64,000 nucleotides of DNA, taken from NCBI GenBank assembly GCA_000146045.2, contig BK006947.3:320001-384000 (forward strand). The letters run 5' to 3'. The stretch is from TPA_inf: Saccharomyces (Eukaryota). Positions 30,940-48,321 of the stretch are shown here, one piece after another. The notes under the pieces were generated by a model that worked only from the letters and a program-made list of their open reading frames with translations, was not told where the DNA came from and searched no databases. A program made the translations under genes and the position numbers. Numbering within the stretch: the first letter of the stretch is position 1; each line of letters begins with the position of its first letter.

Positions 30940-31383
30940 ATGCATCAGCAACACTCCGTATGTTTCACTTCTTATTTTCTTCCGTGGCAATAACCTTCCT
31001 TTTGACTTATTTATACTAACATTATAATAACTATGTTTCCTTTTTGAACTAAGAAATCAGAGAACAAACCACAACAGCAAAGGAAAAAATTCGAAGGCCC
31101 TAAAAGAGAAGCTATTCTGGATTTAGCGAAGTATAAAGATTCTAAAATTCGCGTCAAATTAATGGGTGGTAAATTAGTTATAGGTGTCCTAAAAGGCTAT
31201 GATCAACTGATGAACTTGGTACTTGATGATACAGTAGAATATATGTCTAATCCTGATGATGAAAACAACACTGAACTGATTTCTAAAAACGCAAGAAAGC
31301 TAGGTTTGACCGTCATAAGAGGTACTATTTTGGTCTCTTTAAGTTCCGCCGAAGGTTCTGATGTACTATATATGCAAAAATAG
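30940..31383 (+). CDS. LSM7: Sm-like protein Lsm7; spliced gene with exon 1 at 30940..30957, intron 30958..31053 and exon 2 at 31054..31383
   Basis: Exon 1 reads ATG CAT CAG CAA CAC TCC and is followed by GTATGT. TACTAAC sits at 31014-31020 and the 3' site is ctaAG at 31052-31053. Exon 2 reads KSENKPQQQRKKFEGPKREAILDLAKYKDSKIRVKLMGGKLVIGVLKGYDQLMNLVLDD..., which has Sm motifs. The total is 115 aa. Confidence 0.9.
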
Positions 31384-43900: not shown

Positions 43901-45717
43901 GGGAAAAATTTCATTAGTTCGTAAACTTCCGATGTGGCAATTGGATTGTTCTGCAATAGCGAGGTAGCTGGAAAAATGAATTTTCTTACATAGTCTATCC
44001 ACTTATCAATCGTAACATGCAGAGACTCAGAACCGTGGTTCTTTTGAATGTCAGCTACCCCAATACGTGAAATCTTACTCAAAAGCGTAGGAATTCTCCC
44101 CAAATACGGTCCTATGATAGATAAATAGATATGCGAGTTTTCAAATAGATCATTTACAGAAGCAAAAGGAGTCAAATTGGAATTCCACTCGCTGTAATAG
44201 AAGACGTAGCTTGAATTCAATTCAAGGGATTCAAATGGCTCGTGAGTTTTATATTTATGGATCAACCTTGGCTTATGGGCTAGAATACCATTATCTATAC
44301 GGGTTATCATCAAAGCAGTTGCCATATCTTTTGATTCACCAGATGAGGTCATTGATGTGTACAATGGATTTAAAAGATATTCAAATACTCTTCCCAAATA
44401 TCTAGATAAGGATTCACTAACATATAACACTTTCGGATATTGCTTTAACACATGTATCACGGGAATAACGCAACCATGTATGAGTAAGCGTTCCAAGAGT
44501 TTTATTTTACCAAATAATAAAATATCTTGCTGAGTTTTCTGCTTGCCTTTTGATTCTATATCAGCGTTTGTTTCCTCAGAGATTTTATCCTTCATATTAA
44601 CATCATCATTTACAACAAGGGCGTTGTCTTCGTCAGTTTCATTTTCAGTGGACAAAGCAGCTGCCATAGCCAAGGGATTTTCTACGCCTTTAGTGGACTC
44701 CTCTTCCAGTTCAGTTTCTAAGTTTTGAATATATTCTTGTAGAAATTCCATCTCTGGTTTAACGTTATCCCAAATAGAATAAAAATTGACAAACCCATTT
44801 TTCAGTAAAATGCAACACATATCCATATACCGTTCATAGTTTTCCTTATCGACTTCTTCGTTATATTGCGATAAATTGAATGAAATAATGTTTGCTGCAA
44901 TCATATTACCGCCTTCATTAAGAGAAGAATAATTGGAATTGTTAGCTACATGGCTAGATGGCCAAGAATCCGACTTTCGTAAAAGAGCAATAAAGAACTT
45001 GTACCCTTCAGTGATAAACTGACTAGAAACGTTCAAAATAACATCTAAAGTACGAATAGAATCCAAGGAATATTTCCCCATAATATGATAGATTTCTTTC
45101 AAATATGCGGACACTTTGGAAAAATTGTCGGGATCATAATACGCCAATATTAATAAGGCTACCAATTGACCATAACCCACTGAATTTTCTACCAAAAGGT
45201 TATATTTCTTCAGTTCGTATTTTGACTTTTTTAACAAATGCCTTAATAAGGTGGTTTGTTCCTTGTTGAGCAGCTTAGAGGATATCCAACTAAATTTGAA
45301 CAATTCTTCATGCAACGACGGTATTAGTTTACATAATGATATGGTTGTTAGATCATTTATATTTGGAACAGTGCTTGAGACGGCGATAAACATTTTACCA
45401 ACTATGGAAGCCTGGGACACTTGCCTTTCATGATTCACTAATTCATTAGTAAATGATGCAACATCAGAAAGCTTGAGGGGAGAATTTTCATCGTTTTTAT
45501 TTATGAAATCAAACAGTTCAATAAACAAAGTCCTCAACCAGTCTTCCTTTTCATCATTTGACTCCAGTGCAGTGAAATCGGAGCAGAGAGTTTTTGATCG
45601 TTCAGGCCAGTTTCGTATCACCTCTTCCGTTAAAATGCTTGCCTGACTAGGGGAAGCTGGTGGTATCACTTTTTGAGAAAGAGCGTTCAATTTGGAAAGT
45701 AGCGTCTGTTCTGCCAT
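40924..45717 (-). CDS. THO2: THO complex subunit Tho2 (Rlr1)
   Basis: The ORF-track entry begins at TTG 45771. The ATG at 45717 gives 1597 aa (MAEQTLLSKLNALSQKVIPP...). The C-terminal roughly 250 aa are basic and R/S/K/N-rich. Confidence 0.92.
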   Translation of the reverse strand: MAEQTLLSKLNALSQKVIPPASPSQASILTEEVIRNWPERSKTLCSDFTALESNDEKEDWLRTLFIELFDFINKNDENSPLKLSDVASFTNELVNHERQVSQASIVGKMFIAVSSTVPNINDLTTISLCKLIPSLHEELFKFSWISSKLLNKEQTTLLRHLLKKSKYELKKYNLLVENSVGYGQLVALLILAYYDPDNFSKVSAYLKEIYHIMGKYSLDSIRTLDVILNVSSQFITEGYKFFIALLRKSDSWPSSHVANNSNYSSLNEGGNMIAANIISFNLSQYNEEVDKENYERYMDMCCILLKNGFVNFYSIWDNVKPEMEFLQEYIQNLETELEEESTKGVENPLAMAAALSTENETDEDNALVVNDDVNMKDKISEETNADIESKGKQKTQQDILLFGKIKLLERLLIHGCVIPVIHVLKQYPKVLYVSESLSRYLGRVFEYLLNPLYTSMTSSGESKDMATALMITRIDNGILAHKPRLIHKYKTHEPFESLELNSSYVFYYSEWNSNLTPFASVNDLFENSHIYLSIIGPYLGRIPTLLSKISRIGVADIQKNHGSESLHVTIDKWIDYVRKFIFPATSLLQNNPIATSEVYELMKFFPFEKRYFIYNEMMTKLSQDILPLKVSFNKAEREAKSILKALSIDTIAKESRRFAKLISTNPLASLVPAVKQIENYDKVSELVVYTTKYFNDFAYDVLQFVLLLRLTYNRPAVQFDGVNQAMWVQRLSIFIAGLAKNCPNMDISNIITYILKTLHNGNIIAVSILKELIITVGGIRDLNEVNMKQLLMLNSGSPLKQYARHLIYDFRDDNSVISSRLTSFFTDQSAISEIILLLYTLNLKANTQNSHYKILSTRCDEMNTLLWSFIELIKHCLKGKAFEENVLPFVELNNRFHLSTPWTFHIWRDYLDNQLNSNENFSIDELIEGAEFSDVDLTKISKDLFTTFWRLSLYDIHFDKSLYDERKNALSGENTGHMSNRKKHLIQNQIKDILVTGISHQRAFKKTSEFISEKSNVWNKDCGEDQIKIFLQNCVVPRVLFSPSDALFSSFFIFMAFRTENLMSILNTCITSNILKTLLFCCTSSEAGNLGLFFTDVLKKLEKMRLNGDFNDQASRKLYEWHSVITEQVIDLLSEKNYMSIRNGIEFMKHVTSVFPVVKAHIQLVYTTLEENLINEEREDIKLPSSALIGHLKARLKDALELDEFCTLTEEEAEQKRIREMELEEIKNYETACQNEQKQVALRKQLELNKSQRLQNDPPKSVASGSAGLNSKDRYTYSRNEPVIPTKPSSSQWSYSKVTRHVDDINHYLATNHLQKAISLVENDDETRNLRKLSKQNMPIFDFRNSTLEIFERYFRTLIQNPQNPDFAEKIDSLKRYIKNISREPYPDTTSSYSEAAAPEYTKRSSRYSGNAGGKDGYGSSNYRGPSNDRSAPKNIKPISSYAHKRSELPTRPSKSKTYNDRSRALRPTGPDRGDGFDQRDNRLREEYKKNSSQRSQLRFPEKPFQEGKDSSKANPYQASSYKRDSPSENEEKPNKRFKKDETIRNKFQTQDYRNTRDSGAAHRANENQRYNGNRKSNTQALPQGPKGGNYVSRYQR

Positions 45718-46032
45718 AAAGTCCTGAAAATGTATACTGGTGCGAATATGTATCAACTGAAACCGTTTCACCCTATTATGCTTTAGATAAAGACGATAAA
45801 ATCACAGCCCTATAATTTATGCAACAGTGTTTGCTTCTAAATCAACGTGTTCCCTGGGCATAAACTCTCATACGTTATGTCGCTATTGAAGAAATAGCGG
45901 AAAATCTTACGCCGAAGTTAGCGTTGTCACCCGGGAAGAAGAGAAGAACATAAGCCTTCTCATTCAGAACATGTAAATAGTGGCTAAAATGGTTATATTA
46001 CACAATTCGAAACAGTGAAATTAAGAAAAGAA

Positions 46033-46412
46033 ATGGTATGTTACGTTCTATTGCGCTTTAGTTTGAATTGAAATCATCTTTACCATGGTACTAACTACGC
46101 TTGCGATGAATCGTGCAAGTCCGTGCGGCTTATACGTAATGCTAATACTCAAAACAGGCGGAAAAGCAGAGGCAGTTGAAGTTGCAGAAGATATACAAAC
46201 AAAAGTACATCGGACTGGGAGATGAGAGCACTACACGAGAACAGTGGCAGAGAAATGTGAGAAACGATACACTAAATACATTACAAGGCCACTCCGCATC
46301 TTTGGAGTACGTTTCATTGAGCCGAGGAGACCTTAGTATACGTGACACTCGTATTCACCTCCTGAAATCCATGTCCCCTGGCTATAAAGCCTACTTACGA
46401 GAAGAGAGGTAG
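46033..46412 (+). CDS. YSF3: SF3b 10-kDa subunit Ysf3 (SF3B5 family); spliced gene with exon 1 = ATG only (46033..46035), intron 46036..46157 and exon 2 at 46158..46412
   Basis: The sequence reads aaATG|GTATGT at 46033-46041. TACTAAC sits at 46089-46095 and the 3' site is aaaacAG at 46156-46157. The spliced product MAEKQRQLKLQKIYKQKYIGLGDESTTREQWQRNVRNDTLNTLQGHSASLEYV... is 85 aa. The motif YIG(L/T)GDESTT...W is the conserved SF3B5 signature. Confidence 0.85.
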
Positions 46413-46740
46413 GACGTTGAAGCCACATCCATAAATAATTTTTACATAAAATTACGCCTCGTATGTCGTTCTCAAGATTTATGGTAGAGATCACACTCAG
46501 TCAGTAACCTTTTAGGCATTGATTCTAGTAACTGTCGAACATTATTAACCTTGATGTTTATATAAAGATATAAAATGTTGGGACAGTATACAATTCATAT
46601 CGTTTAAAATGATCTATACATGTCGCGTGAAGTCATAAACAGGGATTTAGAAGTGAAATCTTTTGGTAGTATAGGGGAAAACTCAGCTTGAAACTTTTCG
46701 TAATTGAGTAGGCCAAGTTGCAACCGTGTGAAATCGAATC

Positions 46741-48321
46741 ATGCCTGACTCTAAGTACACAATGCAAGGTTATAACCTTGTTAAGCTATTAAAAAGGCTA
46801 GAAGAAGCCACTGCAAGATTAGAGGATGTCACCATCTATCAAGAAGGTTATATTCAGAATAAATTGGAGGCATCTAAAAATAACAAGCCTTCCGACTCCG
46901 GGGCCGATGCGAATACTACGAATGAACCTTCTGCAGAAAATGCTCCTGAAGTAGAACAAGATCCGAAATGCATAACTGCGTTCCAATCTTACATCGGTGA
47001 GAATATTGATCCGCTGGTAGAATTATCAGGAAAGATCGACACGGTGGTCTTAGATGCTTTGCAGTTGCTAAAGGGAGGCTTTCAATCGCAATTGACTTTT
47101 TTAAGAGCTGCTGTGAGATCAAGAAAACCGGATTATTCTTCTCAAACTTTCGCTGATTCTTTAAGACCTATCAACGAAAATATTATAAAGCTGGGTCAAT
47201 TGAAGGAATCAAACCGTCAAAGCAAATACTTCGCATATTTGAGCGCTTTATCTGAGGGTGCTCCTTTGTTCTCCTGGGTTGCAGTGGACACTCCCGTGTC
47301 TATGGTCACAGATTTCAAGGACGCAGCACAGTTTTGGACTAATAGAATTTTGAAAGAATACAGAGAGTCTGATCCTAATGCTGTTGAATGGGTTAAGAAA
47401 TTTTTGGCCTCTTTCGATAATTTGAAAGCCTACATTAAAGAGTATCATACTACTGGGGTTTCCTGGAAAAAAGACGGTATGGATTTTGCTGACGCGATGG
47501 CACAATCAACGAAGAATACAGGTGCTACTTCATCTCCTTCGCCAGCAAGTGCTACAGCGGCTCCAGCACCACCACCTCCTCCACCAGCCCCACCAGCTTC
47601 CGTCTTTGAAATCTCTAATGATACACCAGCAACGAGTAGTGATGCTAACAAAGGCGGTATTGGCGCGGTCTTCGCCGAACTAAATCAGGGTGAAAATATC
47701 ACTAAGGGTTTGAAAAAAGTAGACAAATCCCAACAAACTCACAAAAATCCTGAATTACGTCAATCCTCTACAGTTTCTTCCACAGGAAGTAAATCCGGTC
47801 CACCACCAAGGCCAAAAAAGCCATCAACATTGAAAACTAAGAGGCCTCCTAGAAAGGAATTGGTAGGAAACAAATGGTTTATTGAGAATTACGAAAATGA
47901 AACTGAATCTCTGGTTATTGATGCAAATAAAGATGAGTCTATCTTCATAGGTAAATGTTCTCAAGTTCTTGTTCAAATAAAAGGAAAAGTTAACGCTATC
48001 TCGTTGAGTGAAACTGAGTCATGCAGTGTTGTTCTTGATTCTAGCATTTCCGGTATGGATGTCATCAAATCCAACAAGTTTGGCATTCAAGTTAACCATT
48101 CCCTACCTCAAATCTCCATTGATAAATCTGACGGCGGTAACATCTATTTATCCAAGGAATCCTTGAATACTGAAATCTACACCTCGTGCTCAACTGCTAT
48201 TAACGTCAACTTACCAATCGGCGAGGACGATGATTACGTAGAATTCCCAATCCCTGAACAGATGAAGCATAGCTTCGCTGATGGTAAGTTCAAATCTGCT
48301 GTTTTCGAACATGCTGGTTAA
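46741..48321 (+). CDS. SRV2: Adenylyl-cyclase-associated protein Srv2/CAP
   Basis: 526-aa ORF with a central poly-Pro block ([11 protein letters not shown]), a WH2-like segment and a C-terminal CARP/beta-helix domain. Confidence 0.93.

What the first reader, a model, noticed from the sequence alone, without database searches (positions are those of the whole stretch)
46033..46160. YSF3 first exon is the start codon alone (ATG|GTATGT); an intervening AG is skipped at the 3' end
The first exon is a bare ATG followed immediately by GTATGT. The functional 3' splice site (cAG at 46156-46157, 63 nt past the TACTAAC branch A) is the one that yields the 85-aa SF3B5-like ORF. An upstream AG (caAG at about 46117-46118, roughly 23 nt past the branch point) would hit a stop after about 20 codons, so it must be bypassed. 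The gene encodes a U2 snRNP (SF3b) component.
Basis: partly seen in the sequence, partly recalled or inferred. Interest (0 to 1): 0.5.

Follow-up and report, generated by a model that had tools for sequence, protein, structure and literature searches.

The report
Annotated YSF3 intron, distant branch point
This is the already annotated intron of the yeast splicing-factor gene YSF3: it sits directly after the start codon and splices to a distant CAG while ignoring a nearer AG, a known and fairly common arrangement in budding yeast.

Summary
ATG (46033-35) is followed by GTATGT. TACTAAC is at 46089-95 (branch A 46094). The only intervening AG is at 46118-19, which is 25 nt from the branch A, not 46117-18 and 23 nt. 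The used CAG is at 46155-57 (63 nt). Splicing to it gives an 85-aa SF3b10 protein identical to Ysf3 in yeast spliceosome structures. Splicing to the proximal AAG gives a 20-aa dead end.

The window is S. cerevisiae chrXIV (+320,000), and the intron equals the annotated YNL138W-A intron. All elements are already documented:
- YSF3 is one of 20 yeast genes whose coding exon 1 is AUG only.
- It belongs to the class of distant-branch-point introns.
- RNA-seq found no alternative junction in NMD mutants (2014). A deeper data set (2023) merely lists the proximal junction.

New here:
- The ATG|GTATGT junction is conserved across Saccharomycetaceae.
- The 61-63-nt spacer is specific to the genus Saccharomyces and more conserved than neutral proxies (0.76 against 0.59-0.60).
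- The proximal AG always lies inside a predicted hairpin, and it is a consensus CAG in S. uvarum and S. eubayanus.

However, shuffled spacers enclose that position almost as often, and covariation is not significant. Masking by structure is therefore the likeliest mechanism but is unproven for this intron. Low interest; already known.

The parts
46033..46035 (+). YSF3 start codon. It is the whole coding part of exon 1; the 5' UTR lies upstream and its extent is unknown.
   Evidence: PMC3226532 Table 2 lists YSF3 with a 3-nt 'AUG' coding first exon. ATG|GTATGT is conserved in 10 species.
46036..46157 (+). YSF3 intron, 122 nt, phase 0, directly after the ATG.
   Evidence: It equals chrXIV:366036-366157 in Roy 2023 Table S1 and chrXIV:366035-366157 (122 nt) in the NSMB 2025 supplement.
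46036..46041 (+). 5' splice site, GTATGT (consensus).
   Evidence: Invariant in all species examined.
46089..46095 (+). Branch-site consensus TACTAAC, with the branch A at 46094.
   Evidence: Invariant in all Saccharomyces taxa. Roy 2023 assigns the best branch point at 366094, but that assignment is computational, not mapped.
46099..46142 (+). Predicted spacer hairpin(s) that enclose the proximal AG. S2 is the long hairpin 46099-46142 (-14.7 kcal/mol at 37 C, -17.7 at 30 C). S1 is the genus-consensus hairpin 46110-46121 paired with 46127-46137. S3 is the local stem 46099-46105 paired with 46114-46120.
   Evidence: The spacer is more conserved than the rest of the intron. It is not more stable than shuffles, and covariation is not significant.
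46118..46119 (+). Proximal AG (cAAG|U), 25 nt from the branch A. It is unproductive: a 20-aa ORF followed by a stop.
   Evidence: Junction 366036_366119 is listed in Roy 2023 Table S1. No alternative junction was detected in Kawashima 2014.
46140..46146 (+). Second, degenerate branch-site-like motif TGCTAAT (A at 46145, 12 nt before the used AG). Probably non-functional.
   Evidence: It reads TACTAAT in S. paradoxus but CACTAGC or TGTTAGG in four other species.
46155..46157 (+). Functional 3' splice site CAG, 63 nt from the branch A.
   Evidence: Annotated 3'SS.
46158..46412 (+). YSF3 exon 2 coding sequence: codons 2-85 plus the TAG stop.
46185..46187 (+). Downstream in-frame cryptic acceptor CAG (+30 nt). 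It would give a 75-aa product lacking residues 2-11.
   Evidence: Junction 366036_366187 in Roy 2023 Table S1. The 75-aa annotation P0005 (MKIYKQ...) in one S. cerevisiae genome.

Best explanation
This is the curated intron of YSF3 (YNL138W-A), which encodes the SF3b10/SF3B5 subunit of U2 snRNP. The identity is essentially certain.

The intron is a phase-0 intron placed immediately after the ATG. U1 recognises AUG|GUAUGU and U2 pairs with UACUAAC (branch A at 46094). Exon ligation then uses the CAG 63 nt downstream.

[quoted passage not shown] The hairpin has two effects:
- It encloses that AG.
- It shortens the effective distance to the CAG from 63 nt to about 19-35 nt.
The first AG presented to the catalytic centre beyond the hairpin is then the CAG.

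The non-consensus AAG sequence of the proximal site adds to the discrimination in S. cerevisiae. The rare proximal-AG products, and unspliced RNA, carry early stop codons and would be NMD substrates.

Shown: the gene identity, the splice sites, the frame consequences, the rarity of the alternative junction and the conservation of the spacer. Inferred: that the hairpin forms in vivo and is what causes the bypass.
For: Identity and splice sites.

Bypass at the splicing step: no alternative junction was seen even in upf1, upf2 or upf3 mutants (Kawashima 2014 Table S4).

Mechanistic precedent:
[quoted passage not shown] Disrupting the UBC13 stem redirected splicing to a CAG 38 nt from the branch point, and compensatory mutations restored the normal pattern.
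- The NSMB 2025 study found 'downstream stems' in 21 of 88 introns. Cryptic YAG/AAG 3'ss were enriched in stems (29% against 12.3% background).

For this intron:
- A hairpin covering the AG is predicted in S. cerevisiae.
- In all five other Saccharomyces species a hairpin is predicted at the same place. The +23-25 AG is enclosed with P about 1.0 in the four that keep it.
- The consensus hairpin keeps 94% of its cells paired, with one compensatory change.
- The spacer shows 0.76 mean pairwise identity and 48% invariant columns. The comparison values are 0.59 and 26% for the 5' half of the same intron, 0.59 for the upstream flank and 0.60 for third codon positions of exon 2.
- Spacer length is fixed at 57-59 nt.
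- In S. uvarum and S. eubayanus the proximal site is a consensus CAG at +23. Using it would give a premature stop (36 and 11 aa), and it is predicted paired at P >= 0.95. Weakness of AAG therefore cannot be the general explanation.
Against: - Thermodynamics does not discriminate. The z-score of the S. cerevisiae spacer is -1.44 (16 of 200 shuffles fold as well).
- With the branch-site region held open at 30 C, the spacer is less stable than the mean shuffle.
- Shuffled spacers enclose the same position with mean P 0.91-0.98, against 0.99-1.0 observed.
- Covariation is not significant: 136 of 500 shuffles reach the observed score, from only 7 sequences.
- The preferred fold differs between species: S2 in S. 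cerevisiae, S3 in S. paradoxus and S1 in the others.
- In S. cerevisiae the AAG is predicted to be unpaired, in a hairpin loop (P unpaired 0.84-0.99).
- S. arboricola has lost the proximal AG yet keeps the spacer.
- No structure-probing result for this intron was found. It is listed in the NSMB supplement, but I could not establish that a structure was called for it.
Confidence: 0.6

Rival explanations
1. Sequence preference alone. The proximal site is a weak non-YAG acceptor (AAG, preceded by GUGC and with no U-tract). Second-step factors and proofreading (Prp18, Slu7, Prp22) simply favour the distal CAG, and no structure is needed.
For: - The 3'SS consensus is YAG, and Prp18 enforces it (Roy 2023).
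- AAG is a minority class among annotated 3'SS: 9 of about 96 in Kawashima Table S4.
- In S. cerevisiae the AAG is predicted to be unpaired.
- The thermodynamic evidence for a selected structure is null.
Against: - AAG is a competent annotated 3'SS in several yeast genes, and it is apparently the YSF3 3'ss in T. globosa.
- In S. uvarum and S. eubayanus the same position holds a consensus CAG that must still be bypassed.
- A 63-nt unstructured distance is at a range where Gahura 2011 found structure to be required.
- This rival does not explain the elevated conservation of the spacer.
Confidence: 0.22
2. A different branch point is used. The branch is the downstream TGCTAAT (A at 46145, 12 nt from the CAG). 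The AAG at 46118-19 would then lie upstream of the branch and never compete.
For: - The motif is present in S. cerevisiae and is closer to consensus (TACTAAT) in S. paradoxus.
- The 12-nt spacing and the ...AAACAG|TC 3' end mirror K. africana, where TACTAAC lies 12 nt before the CAG.
Against: - The motif deviates from consensus at two positions in S. cerevisiae.
- The branch A is replaced by G in S. kudriavzevii, S. arboricola, S. uvarum and S. eubayanus (CACTAGC or TGTTAGG).
- The perfect upstream TACTAAC is invariant in all seven taxa.
- Roy 2023 assigns the best branch point at 366094.
- The junction to 366119 exists, and it requires an upstream branch.
Confidence: 0.05
3. Both acceptors are used substantially, and NMD removes the proximal-AG mRNA. 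The 'bypass' would then be an artefact of looking at steady-state RNA, possibly serving as regulated unproductive splicing.
For: - The proximal product has a stop after 20 codons.
- YNL138W-A RPKM rises from 57 to 81-88 in upf1, upf2 and upf3 mutants.
- The proximal junction is listed in a data set that includes upf1-deletion strains.
Against: - Kawashima 2014 detected no alternative junction for this gene in any NMD mutant.
- The 1.4-1.5-fold rise can equally come from unspliced pre-mRNA, which has a stop after 12 codons, or from indirect effects.
Confidence: 0.06

Closest known systems
SGD/RefSeq annotation of YSF3 (YNL138W-A), chrXIV 366033-366035 joined to 366158-366412
   Same: The start codon, 5'ss, branch site, 3'ss and 85-aa product are identical.
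   Different: Nothing differs. The finding is a re-discovery of the curated gene model. The Ala2 of the window is the S288C allele; most strains have Ser2.
Distant-branch-point introns whose 3'ss is chosen through a stem between branch point and 3'ss: COF1 and UBC13 (Gahura et al. 2011, PMC3239191), RPS23B and APE2 (Meyer et al. 2011, cited), and the 'downstream stems' of NSMB 2025 (PMC12350175)
   Same: A long distance from branch point to 3'ss (63 nt). An intervening AG lies inside a predicted hairpin. The predicted effective distance is brought down to about 19-35 nt. The spacer is conserved within the genus.
   Different: No mutational or probing evidence exists for YSF3. The predicted fold is not more stable than shuffles and is not conserved in detail. 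In S. cerevisiae the AG sits in a loop rather than a stem.
Yeast genes whose coding first exon is only AUG, such as RPL30, RPS17A/B, RPS24A/B, QCR9, VMA10, UBC12 and BOS1 (PMC3226532 Table 2)
   Same: A phase-0 intron directly after the initiation codon. YSF3 is itself one of the 20 genes listed.
   Different: None. Added here: the junction is conserved in Kazachstania, Torulaspora, Lachancea and Vanderwaltozyma.
Human SF3B5 / SF3b10 (Pfam PF07189; PDB 5ife_B)
   Same: The same protein family. Weak but significant direct sequence similarity (E = 3e-4).
   Different: This concerns the protein only. The intron architecture of the human gene was not examined here.

Membership tests
SF3b10/SF3B5 protein family (Ysf3) | Match to Pfam PF07189 above the gathering score | tested here: met
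   66.7 bits against a cut-off of 27, E = 2.1e-18, residues 3-74.
SF3b10/SF3B5 protein family (Ysf3) | Identity to the Ysf3 chain seen in solved yeast spliceosome / U2 snRNP structures | tested here: met
   Residues 1-85 equal 5gm6_K; also found in 5lqw, 5nrl, 5zwm, 6g90, 7oqe and 7dco.
SF3b10/SF3B5 protein family (Ysf3) | Syntenic position between THO2 and SRV2 in related yeasts | tested here: met
Canonical S. cerevisiae spliceosomal intron | GUAUGU 5'ss, UACUAAC branch site and YAG 3'ss in order, with at least 42 nt from 5'ss to branch point and at least 10 nt from branch point to 3'ss | tested here: met
   GTATGT at 46036, TACTAAC at 46089, CAG at 46155. The distances are 58 nt and 63 nt. 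The pair of signals occurs 3 times against 0.07 expected.
Canonical S. cerevisiae spliceosomal intron | The spliced junction is observed in RNA | tested here: met
   From the literature only. Junction chrXIV_366036_366157 has 97/98-nt perfect overhangs in Roy 2023 Table S1. The gene is listed as expressed and spliced in Kawashima 2014.
Canonical S. cerevisiae spliceosomal intron | The branch nucleotide is mapped experimentally | not testable with these tools
   The Branch-seq supplement (PMC5029451) is not held. The branch point in Roy 2023 is a best-match assignment.
Structure-dependent distant-branch-point introns (Gahura 2011 / Meyer 2011 class) | Linear distance from branch point to 3'ss beyond about 45-50 nt | tested here: met
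   63 nt. Gahura counts 22 introns over 60 nt.
Structure-dependent distant-branch-point introns (Gahura 2011 / Meyer 2011 class) | A stable stem-loop between branch point and 3'ss, beyond what composition gives | tested here: inconclusive
   A hairpin of -14.7 kcal/mol is predicted, but z = -1.44. It is no better than shuffles at 30 C with the branch-site constraint.
Structure-dependent distant-branch-point introns (Gahura 2011 / Meyer 2011 class) | Intervening AG(s) sequestered in the structure while the true 3'ss is outside it | tested here: inconclusive
   The +23-25 AG is enclosed with P 0.99-1.0 in the five species that have it, but shuffles give 0.91-0.98. In S. cerevisiae the AG is in a loop. 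In four species a UAG at +49-51 lies outside the hairpin.
Structure-dependent distant-branch-point introns (Gahura 2011 / Meyer 2011 class) | Evolutionary support for the stem (covariation or conservation) | tested here: inconclusive
   94% of cells are paired, with 1 compensatory pair, but 136 of 500 shuffles do as well. Spacer identity is 0.76 against 0.59-0.60 for neutral proxies.
Structure-dependent distant-branch-point introns (Gahura 2011 / Meyer 2011 class) | Disrupting the stem activates the proximal AG or abolishes splicing, and compensatory changes restore it | not testable with these tools
   This needs a reporter experiment.
Regulated unproductive splicing coupled to NMD | The alternative junction creates a premature stop | tested here: met
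   A 20-aa ORF.
Regulated unproductive splicing coupled to NMD | The alternative isoform accumulates when NMD is inactivated | tested here: not met
   From the literature. No alternative junction was detected in upf1, upf2 or upf3 mutants (Kawashima 2014 Table S4). Only total RPKM rises, by 1.4-1.5-fold.

The most novel reading that the evidence does not exclude
The genus-specific, unusually conserved 57-59-nt spacer is a selected RNA switch, for example a thermosensor like the one in APE2. It would tune how much productive YSF3 mRNA is made, by toggling between the CAG and unproductive acceptors or intron retention. Because the gene encodes an SF3b subunit that sits at the branch site, this would form a feedback loop on U2 snRNP dosage.
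Probability: 0.06. Interest if true: 0.5.

Novelty: already known. Interest (0 to 1): 0.12.

Why it matters

The gene model, the AUG-only coding exon, the 63-nt branch-point-to-3'ss distance and even the rare proximal junction are already in public tables. The general mechanism, hairpins that hide proximal AGs and shorten the effective distance, has been demonstrated for other yeast introns.

The small added value lies in the comparative picture:
- The ATG|intron junction is ancient.
- The long spacer is a Saccharomyces-genus innovation and is under constraint.
- In S. uvarum and S. eubayanus a consensus CAG at an ideal distance has to be ignored.
These points make YSF3 a clean natural test case for structure-based 3'ss choice.

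Tried and rejected
1. Thermodynamic significance of the spacer fold. It is not better than dinucleotide shuffles, and enclosure of the AG is almost as frequent in shuffles. I rejected it as evidence either way.
2. Covariation on three explicit folds across 7 Saccharomyces sequences. There is one compensatory pair, which is not significant, and too few, too similar sequences.
3. Downstream TGCTAAT as the real branch point. I rejected it on conservation.
4. NMD hiding heavy proximal use. I rejected it on Kawashima Table S4.
5. An Rfam scan of 45700-46800. The only hit is a sub-threshold snoRNA match on the minus strand (22.8 bits against a gathering score of 50), which I treat as chance.
6. The second ATGGTATGT at 55676. 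It is out of frame inside a long ORF, so it is chance.
7. Junction counts. The text of Roy 2023 held here has only the junction catalogue. The supplements of the Fyv6 paper and of Aslanzadeh 2018 contain no YSF3 entry.
8. Papers and supplements not held: Meyer 2011, Plass 2012, Gahura's Supplementary Table S1 and the Branch-seq supplement. I therefore could not check whether YSF3 is listed individually there.

Full report
WHAT IS IN THE SEQUENCE

On the + strand, ATG (46033-46035) is followed directly by GTATGT (46036-46041). TACTAAC lies at 46089-46095, with the branch A at 46094. Downstream of it there are exactly two AGs before the coding body:
- cAAG at 46116-46119, with its AG at 46118-46119, 25 nt from the branch A;
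- aCAG at 46154-46157, 63 nt from the branch A.

Everything else is exact.

The splice outcomes are as follows:
- Joining the ATG to 46158 gives an 85-aa ORF that ends at the TAG at 46410-46412.
- Joining it to 46120 gives MSVRLIRNANTQNRRKSRGS and then a stop.
- Unspliced RNA reads MVCYVLLRFSLN and then a stop.

The 5'ss and branch-site pair is not a chance co-occurrence. GTATGT-N30-60-TACTAAC is found 3 times in the window against 0.07 expected. ATGGTATGT alone (2 matches against 0.46 expected) would not be convincing. Its second copy, at 55676, is out of frame inside a 1060-codon ORF.

IDENTITY

The 85-aa product matches Pfam SF3b10 (PF07189) at 66.7 bits, E = 2e-18. It is identical over residues 1-85 to the 'RDS3 complex subunit 10' chain of seven yeast spliceosome entries, such as 5gm6_K. 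Its protein cluster is named 'U2 snRNP complex subunit YSF3 [Saccharomyces cerevisiae S288C]'. The neighbours are a THO2-like ORF on the minus strand and an SRV2/CAP-like ORF on the plus strand.

Published tables give the YSF3 intron as chrXIV:366036-366157, with TACTAAC at 366094 and a branch-point-to-3'ss distance of 63. The window is therefore S. cerevisiae chrXIV offset by 320,000, and the finding is the curated gene model of YNL138W-A.

'FIRST EXON IS THE START CODON ALONE'

This is true for the coding part only. A 5' UTR must precede it, and its start cannot be read from the sequence. [quoted passage not shown] Its Table 2 lists YSF3 next to RPL30, RPS17A/B, RPS24A/B, QCR9, VMA10, UBC12 and others.

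New here: ATG|GTATGT is conserved in all of the following:
- S. paradoxus, S. kudriavzevii, S. arboricola, S. uvarum and S. eubayanus;
- Kazachstania africana, Torulaspora globosa, Lachancea thermotolerans and Vanderwaltozyma polyspora.

The junction is therefore ancestral in Saccharomycetaceae. The conserved N-terminus M-S-(E/D)-K-x-R-Q, which begins exactly at the junction, independently supports the choice of acceptor.

IS THE PROXIMAL AG REALLY BYPASSED?

Yes, and at the splicing step. Kawashima et al. [quoted passage not shown] RPKM was 57.4 in wild type and 88.2, 84.8 and 80.7 in the three mutants.

The deeper, multi-aligner catalogue of Roy et al. 2023 does list a junction 366036_366119 (the proximal AG) and a junction 366036_366187 (an in-frame CAG 30 nt downstream). 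No counts are available in the text held here. Use of the proximal AG is thus rare but not zero.

One S. cerevisiae genome annotation (P0005, 75 aa, MKIYKQ...) actually chose the +30 acceptor.

MECHANISM

The established precedent is structure-based 3'ss selection in distant-branch-point introns:
- Gahura et al. 2011 showed for COF1 and UBC13 that a stem between branch point and 3'ss both shortens the distance and masks proximal acceptors, with compensatory-mutation proof.
- The NSMB 2025 in-vivo DMS study found such 'downstream stems' in 21 of 88 introns and an enrichment of cryptic 3'ss inside stems.

For YSF3, three overlapping hairpins can be drawn:
- S2 is a long hairpin at 46099-46142. 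Its energy is -14.7 kcal/mol at 37 C and -17.7 at 30 C, and the AAG sits in its apical loop.
- S3 is a local stem, CUUGCGA paired with UGCAAG, that pairs the AAG.
- S1 is a genus-consensus hairpin, 46110-46121 paired with 46127-46137, that pairs the AAG.

S1 or a variant of it is the predicted minimum-energy fold in every taxon except S. cerevisiae. Scored as fixed folds, it is the best of the three in S. kudriavzevii, S. arboricola, S. uvarum and S. eubayanus.

CONTROLS

The thermodynamic support is weak:
- The z-score is only -1.44.
- With the branch-site region held single-stranded at 30 C, the S. cerevisiae spacer is no more stable than shuffles.
- Shuffled spacers enclose the same position with mean probability 0.91-0.98, against 0.99-1.0 observed.
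- Effective distances (medians of 19-32 nt) equal those of shuffles.

Covariation is not significant either. S1 keeps 94% of its cells paired and has one compensatory pair, but 136 of 500 shuffles do as well. S2 and S3 have no compensatory changes. Structure prediction alone therefore neither proves nor disproves masking.

WHAT DOES CARRY WEIGHT IS COMPARATIVE

1. The long spacer is specific to the genus Saccharomyces. Its branch-point-to-3'ss distance is 61-63 nt in all six Saccharomyces species. The distance is 12 nt in K. africana, 15 in T. globosa, 19 in L. thermotolerans and 42 in V. polyspora.
2. Within the genus the spacer evolves more slowly than neutral proxies. It shows mean pairwise identity 0.76 and 48% invariant columns. 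The comparison values are 0.59 and 26% for the 5' half of the same intron, 0.59 for the 100 nt upstream and 0.60 for third codon positions of exon 2. Only single-base indels occur in the spacer.
3. An AG at +23-25 is present in five of six species, and using it always gives a premature stop (11-36 aa). In S. uvarum and S. eubayanus it is a consensus CAG at an ideal distance, yet the conserved 85-aa frame requires skipping it. There it is predicted paired with P >= 0.95. This argues that weakness of AAG cannot be the general explanation, although it probably helps in S. cerevisiae.

RIVALS

The rivals are listed here with my confidence in each:
- Sequence preference alone (0.22). The consensus CAG in the two sister species and the 63-nt reach both argue against it.
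- A downstream branch point, TGCTAAT at 46140-46146 (0.05). It is attractive because it sits 12 nt from the CAG, as in K. africana, and reads TACTAAT in S. paradoxus. However, the branch A is lost in four species, whereas the upstream TACTAAC is invariant. The observed junction to 366119 also needs an upstream branch.
- NMD hiding heavy proximal use (0.06). The absence of alternative junctions in NMD mutants contradicts it.

COMPARISON WITH WHAT IS KNOWN, AND VERDICT

All elements of the finding are already in public annotation or tables, and the mechanism class is established. YSF3 itself does not appear to have been dissected individually in the literature I could read.

I could not read several sources that may list it:
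- Meyer 2011;
- Plass 2012;
- Gahura's supplementary table;
- the Branch-seq supplement.

The novelty rating is 'already known' and interest is low (0.12).

The most novel reading not excluded is that the conserved spacer is a regulatory switch feeding back on SF3b dosage. I give it about 6%.

Noticed in passing
window 46158 (first base of exon 2); loci L008, L009 and others: S288C has CAG|GCG (Ala2). Most S. cerevisiae strains (cluster member P0004, seen on 100 contigs) and every other species examined have CAG|TCN (Ser2). The base immediately after the 3' splice site is therefore a reference-strain-specific variant.
   Followed up: partly
L003 (S. kudriavzevii), L005 (S. arboricola), L001 (S. 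uvarum), L004 (S. eubayanus): 12 nt upstream of the annotated YSF3 3'ss: These four species carry a UAG at branch A +49 to +51, outside the predicted hairpin and mostly unpaired. Using it would add 4 in-frame residues in three species and give a stop after 4 codons in S. uvarum. Which acceptor is used there is unknown, because the annotations are homology-based.
   Followed up: partly
window 46140-46146; L009 (S. paradoxus); L010 2175-2242 (K. africana): A second branch-site-like motif lies 12 nt before the CAG: TGCTAAT in S. cerevisiae and TACTAAT in S. paradoxus. Its spacing and the ...AAACAG|TC end resemble the K. africana intron, where TACTAAC lies 12 nt before the CAG. It may be a relic of the ancestral branch site, left behind when the spacer arose.
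   Followed up: partly
window 46185-46187: An in-frame CAG lies 30 nt inside exon 2. Roy 2023 list it as junction 366036_366187, and one S. cerevisiae genome annotation uses it (QHB11241.1, 75 aa).
   Followed up: yes
YNL138W-A expression (literature): RPKM rises from 57.4 in wild type to 88.2, 84.8 and 80.7 in upf1, upf2 and upf3 mutants, although no alternative junction was detected. This suggests that an NMD-sensitive fraction exists, perhaps unspliced pre-mRNA, or that the effect is indirect.
   Followed up: no
window 45971-45976 and 45989-46018 (+): Two upstream ATGs lie shortly before the YSF3 start codon: ATG-TAA, and a 9-codon ORF ending in TGA at 46016-46018. Whether they are in the 5' UTR depends on the unknown TSS.
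   Followed up: no
window 30958-31020 (+) and 60781-60723 (-): Two further GTATGT...TACTAAC signal pairs are present. The first follows ATGCATCAGCAACACTCC (MHQQHS, probably LSM7, from memory). The second is probably the CPT1/YNL130C intron. Both are likely annotated introns.
   Followed up: partly
L012 1895-2196 (Torulaspora globosa YSF3): The annotated 3'ss is an AAG 15 nt from the branch A, and an out-of-frame CAG lies 7 nt further downstream. Here the non-consensus proximal site appears to be the productive one.
   Followed up: no
L011 1359-1553 (Nakaseomyces bracarensis): The SF3b10 homologue is called as a 64-aa intronless ORF that lacks the conserved N-terminal segment, and no ATG|GTATGT is found upstream. 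The cause may be intron loss with N-terminal truncation, or a mis-annotation.
   Followed up: no
window 45988-46087 (-): A sub-threshold Rfam match to snoZ107_R87 (22.8 bits against a gathering score of 50, E = 0.045), antisense to the 5' part of the intron. I treat it as chance.
   Followed up: no
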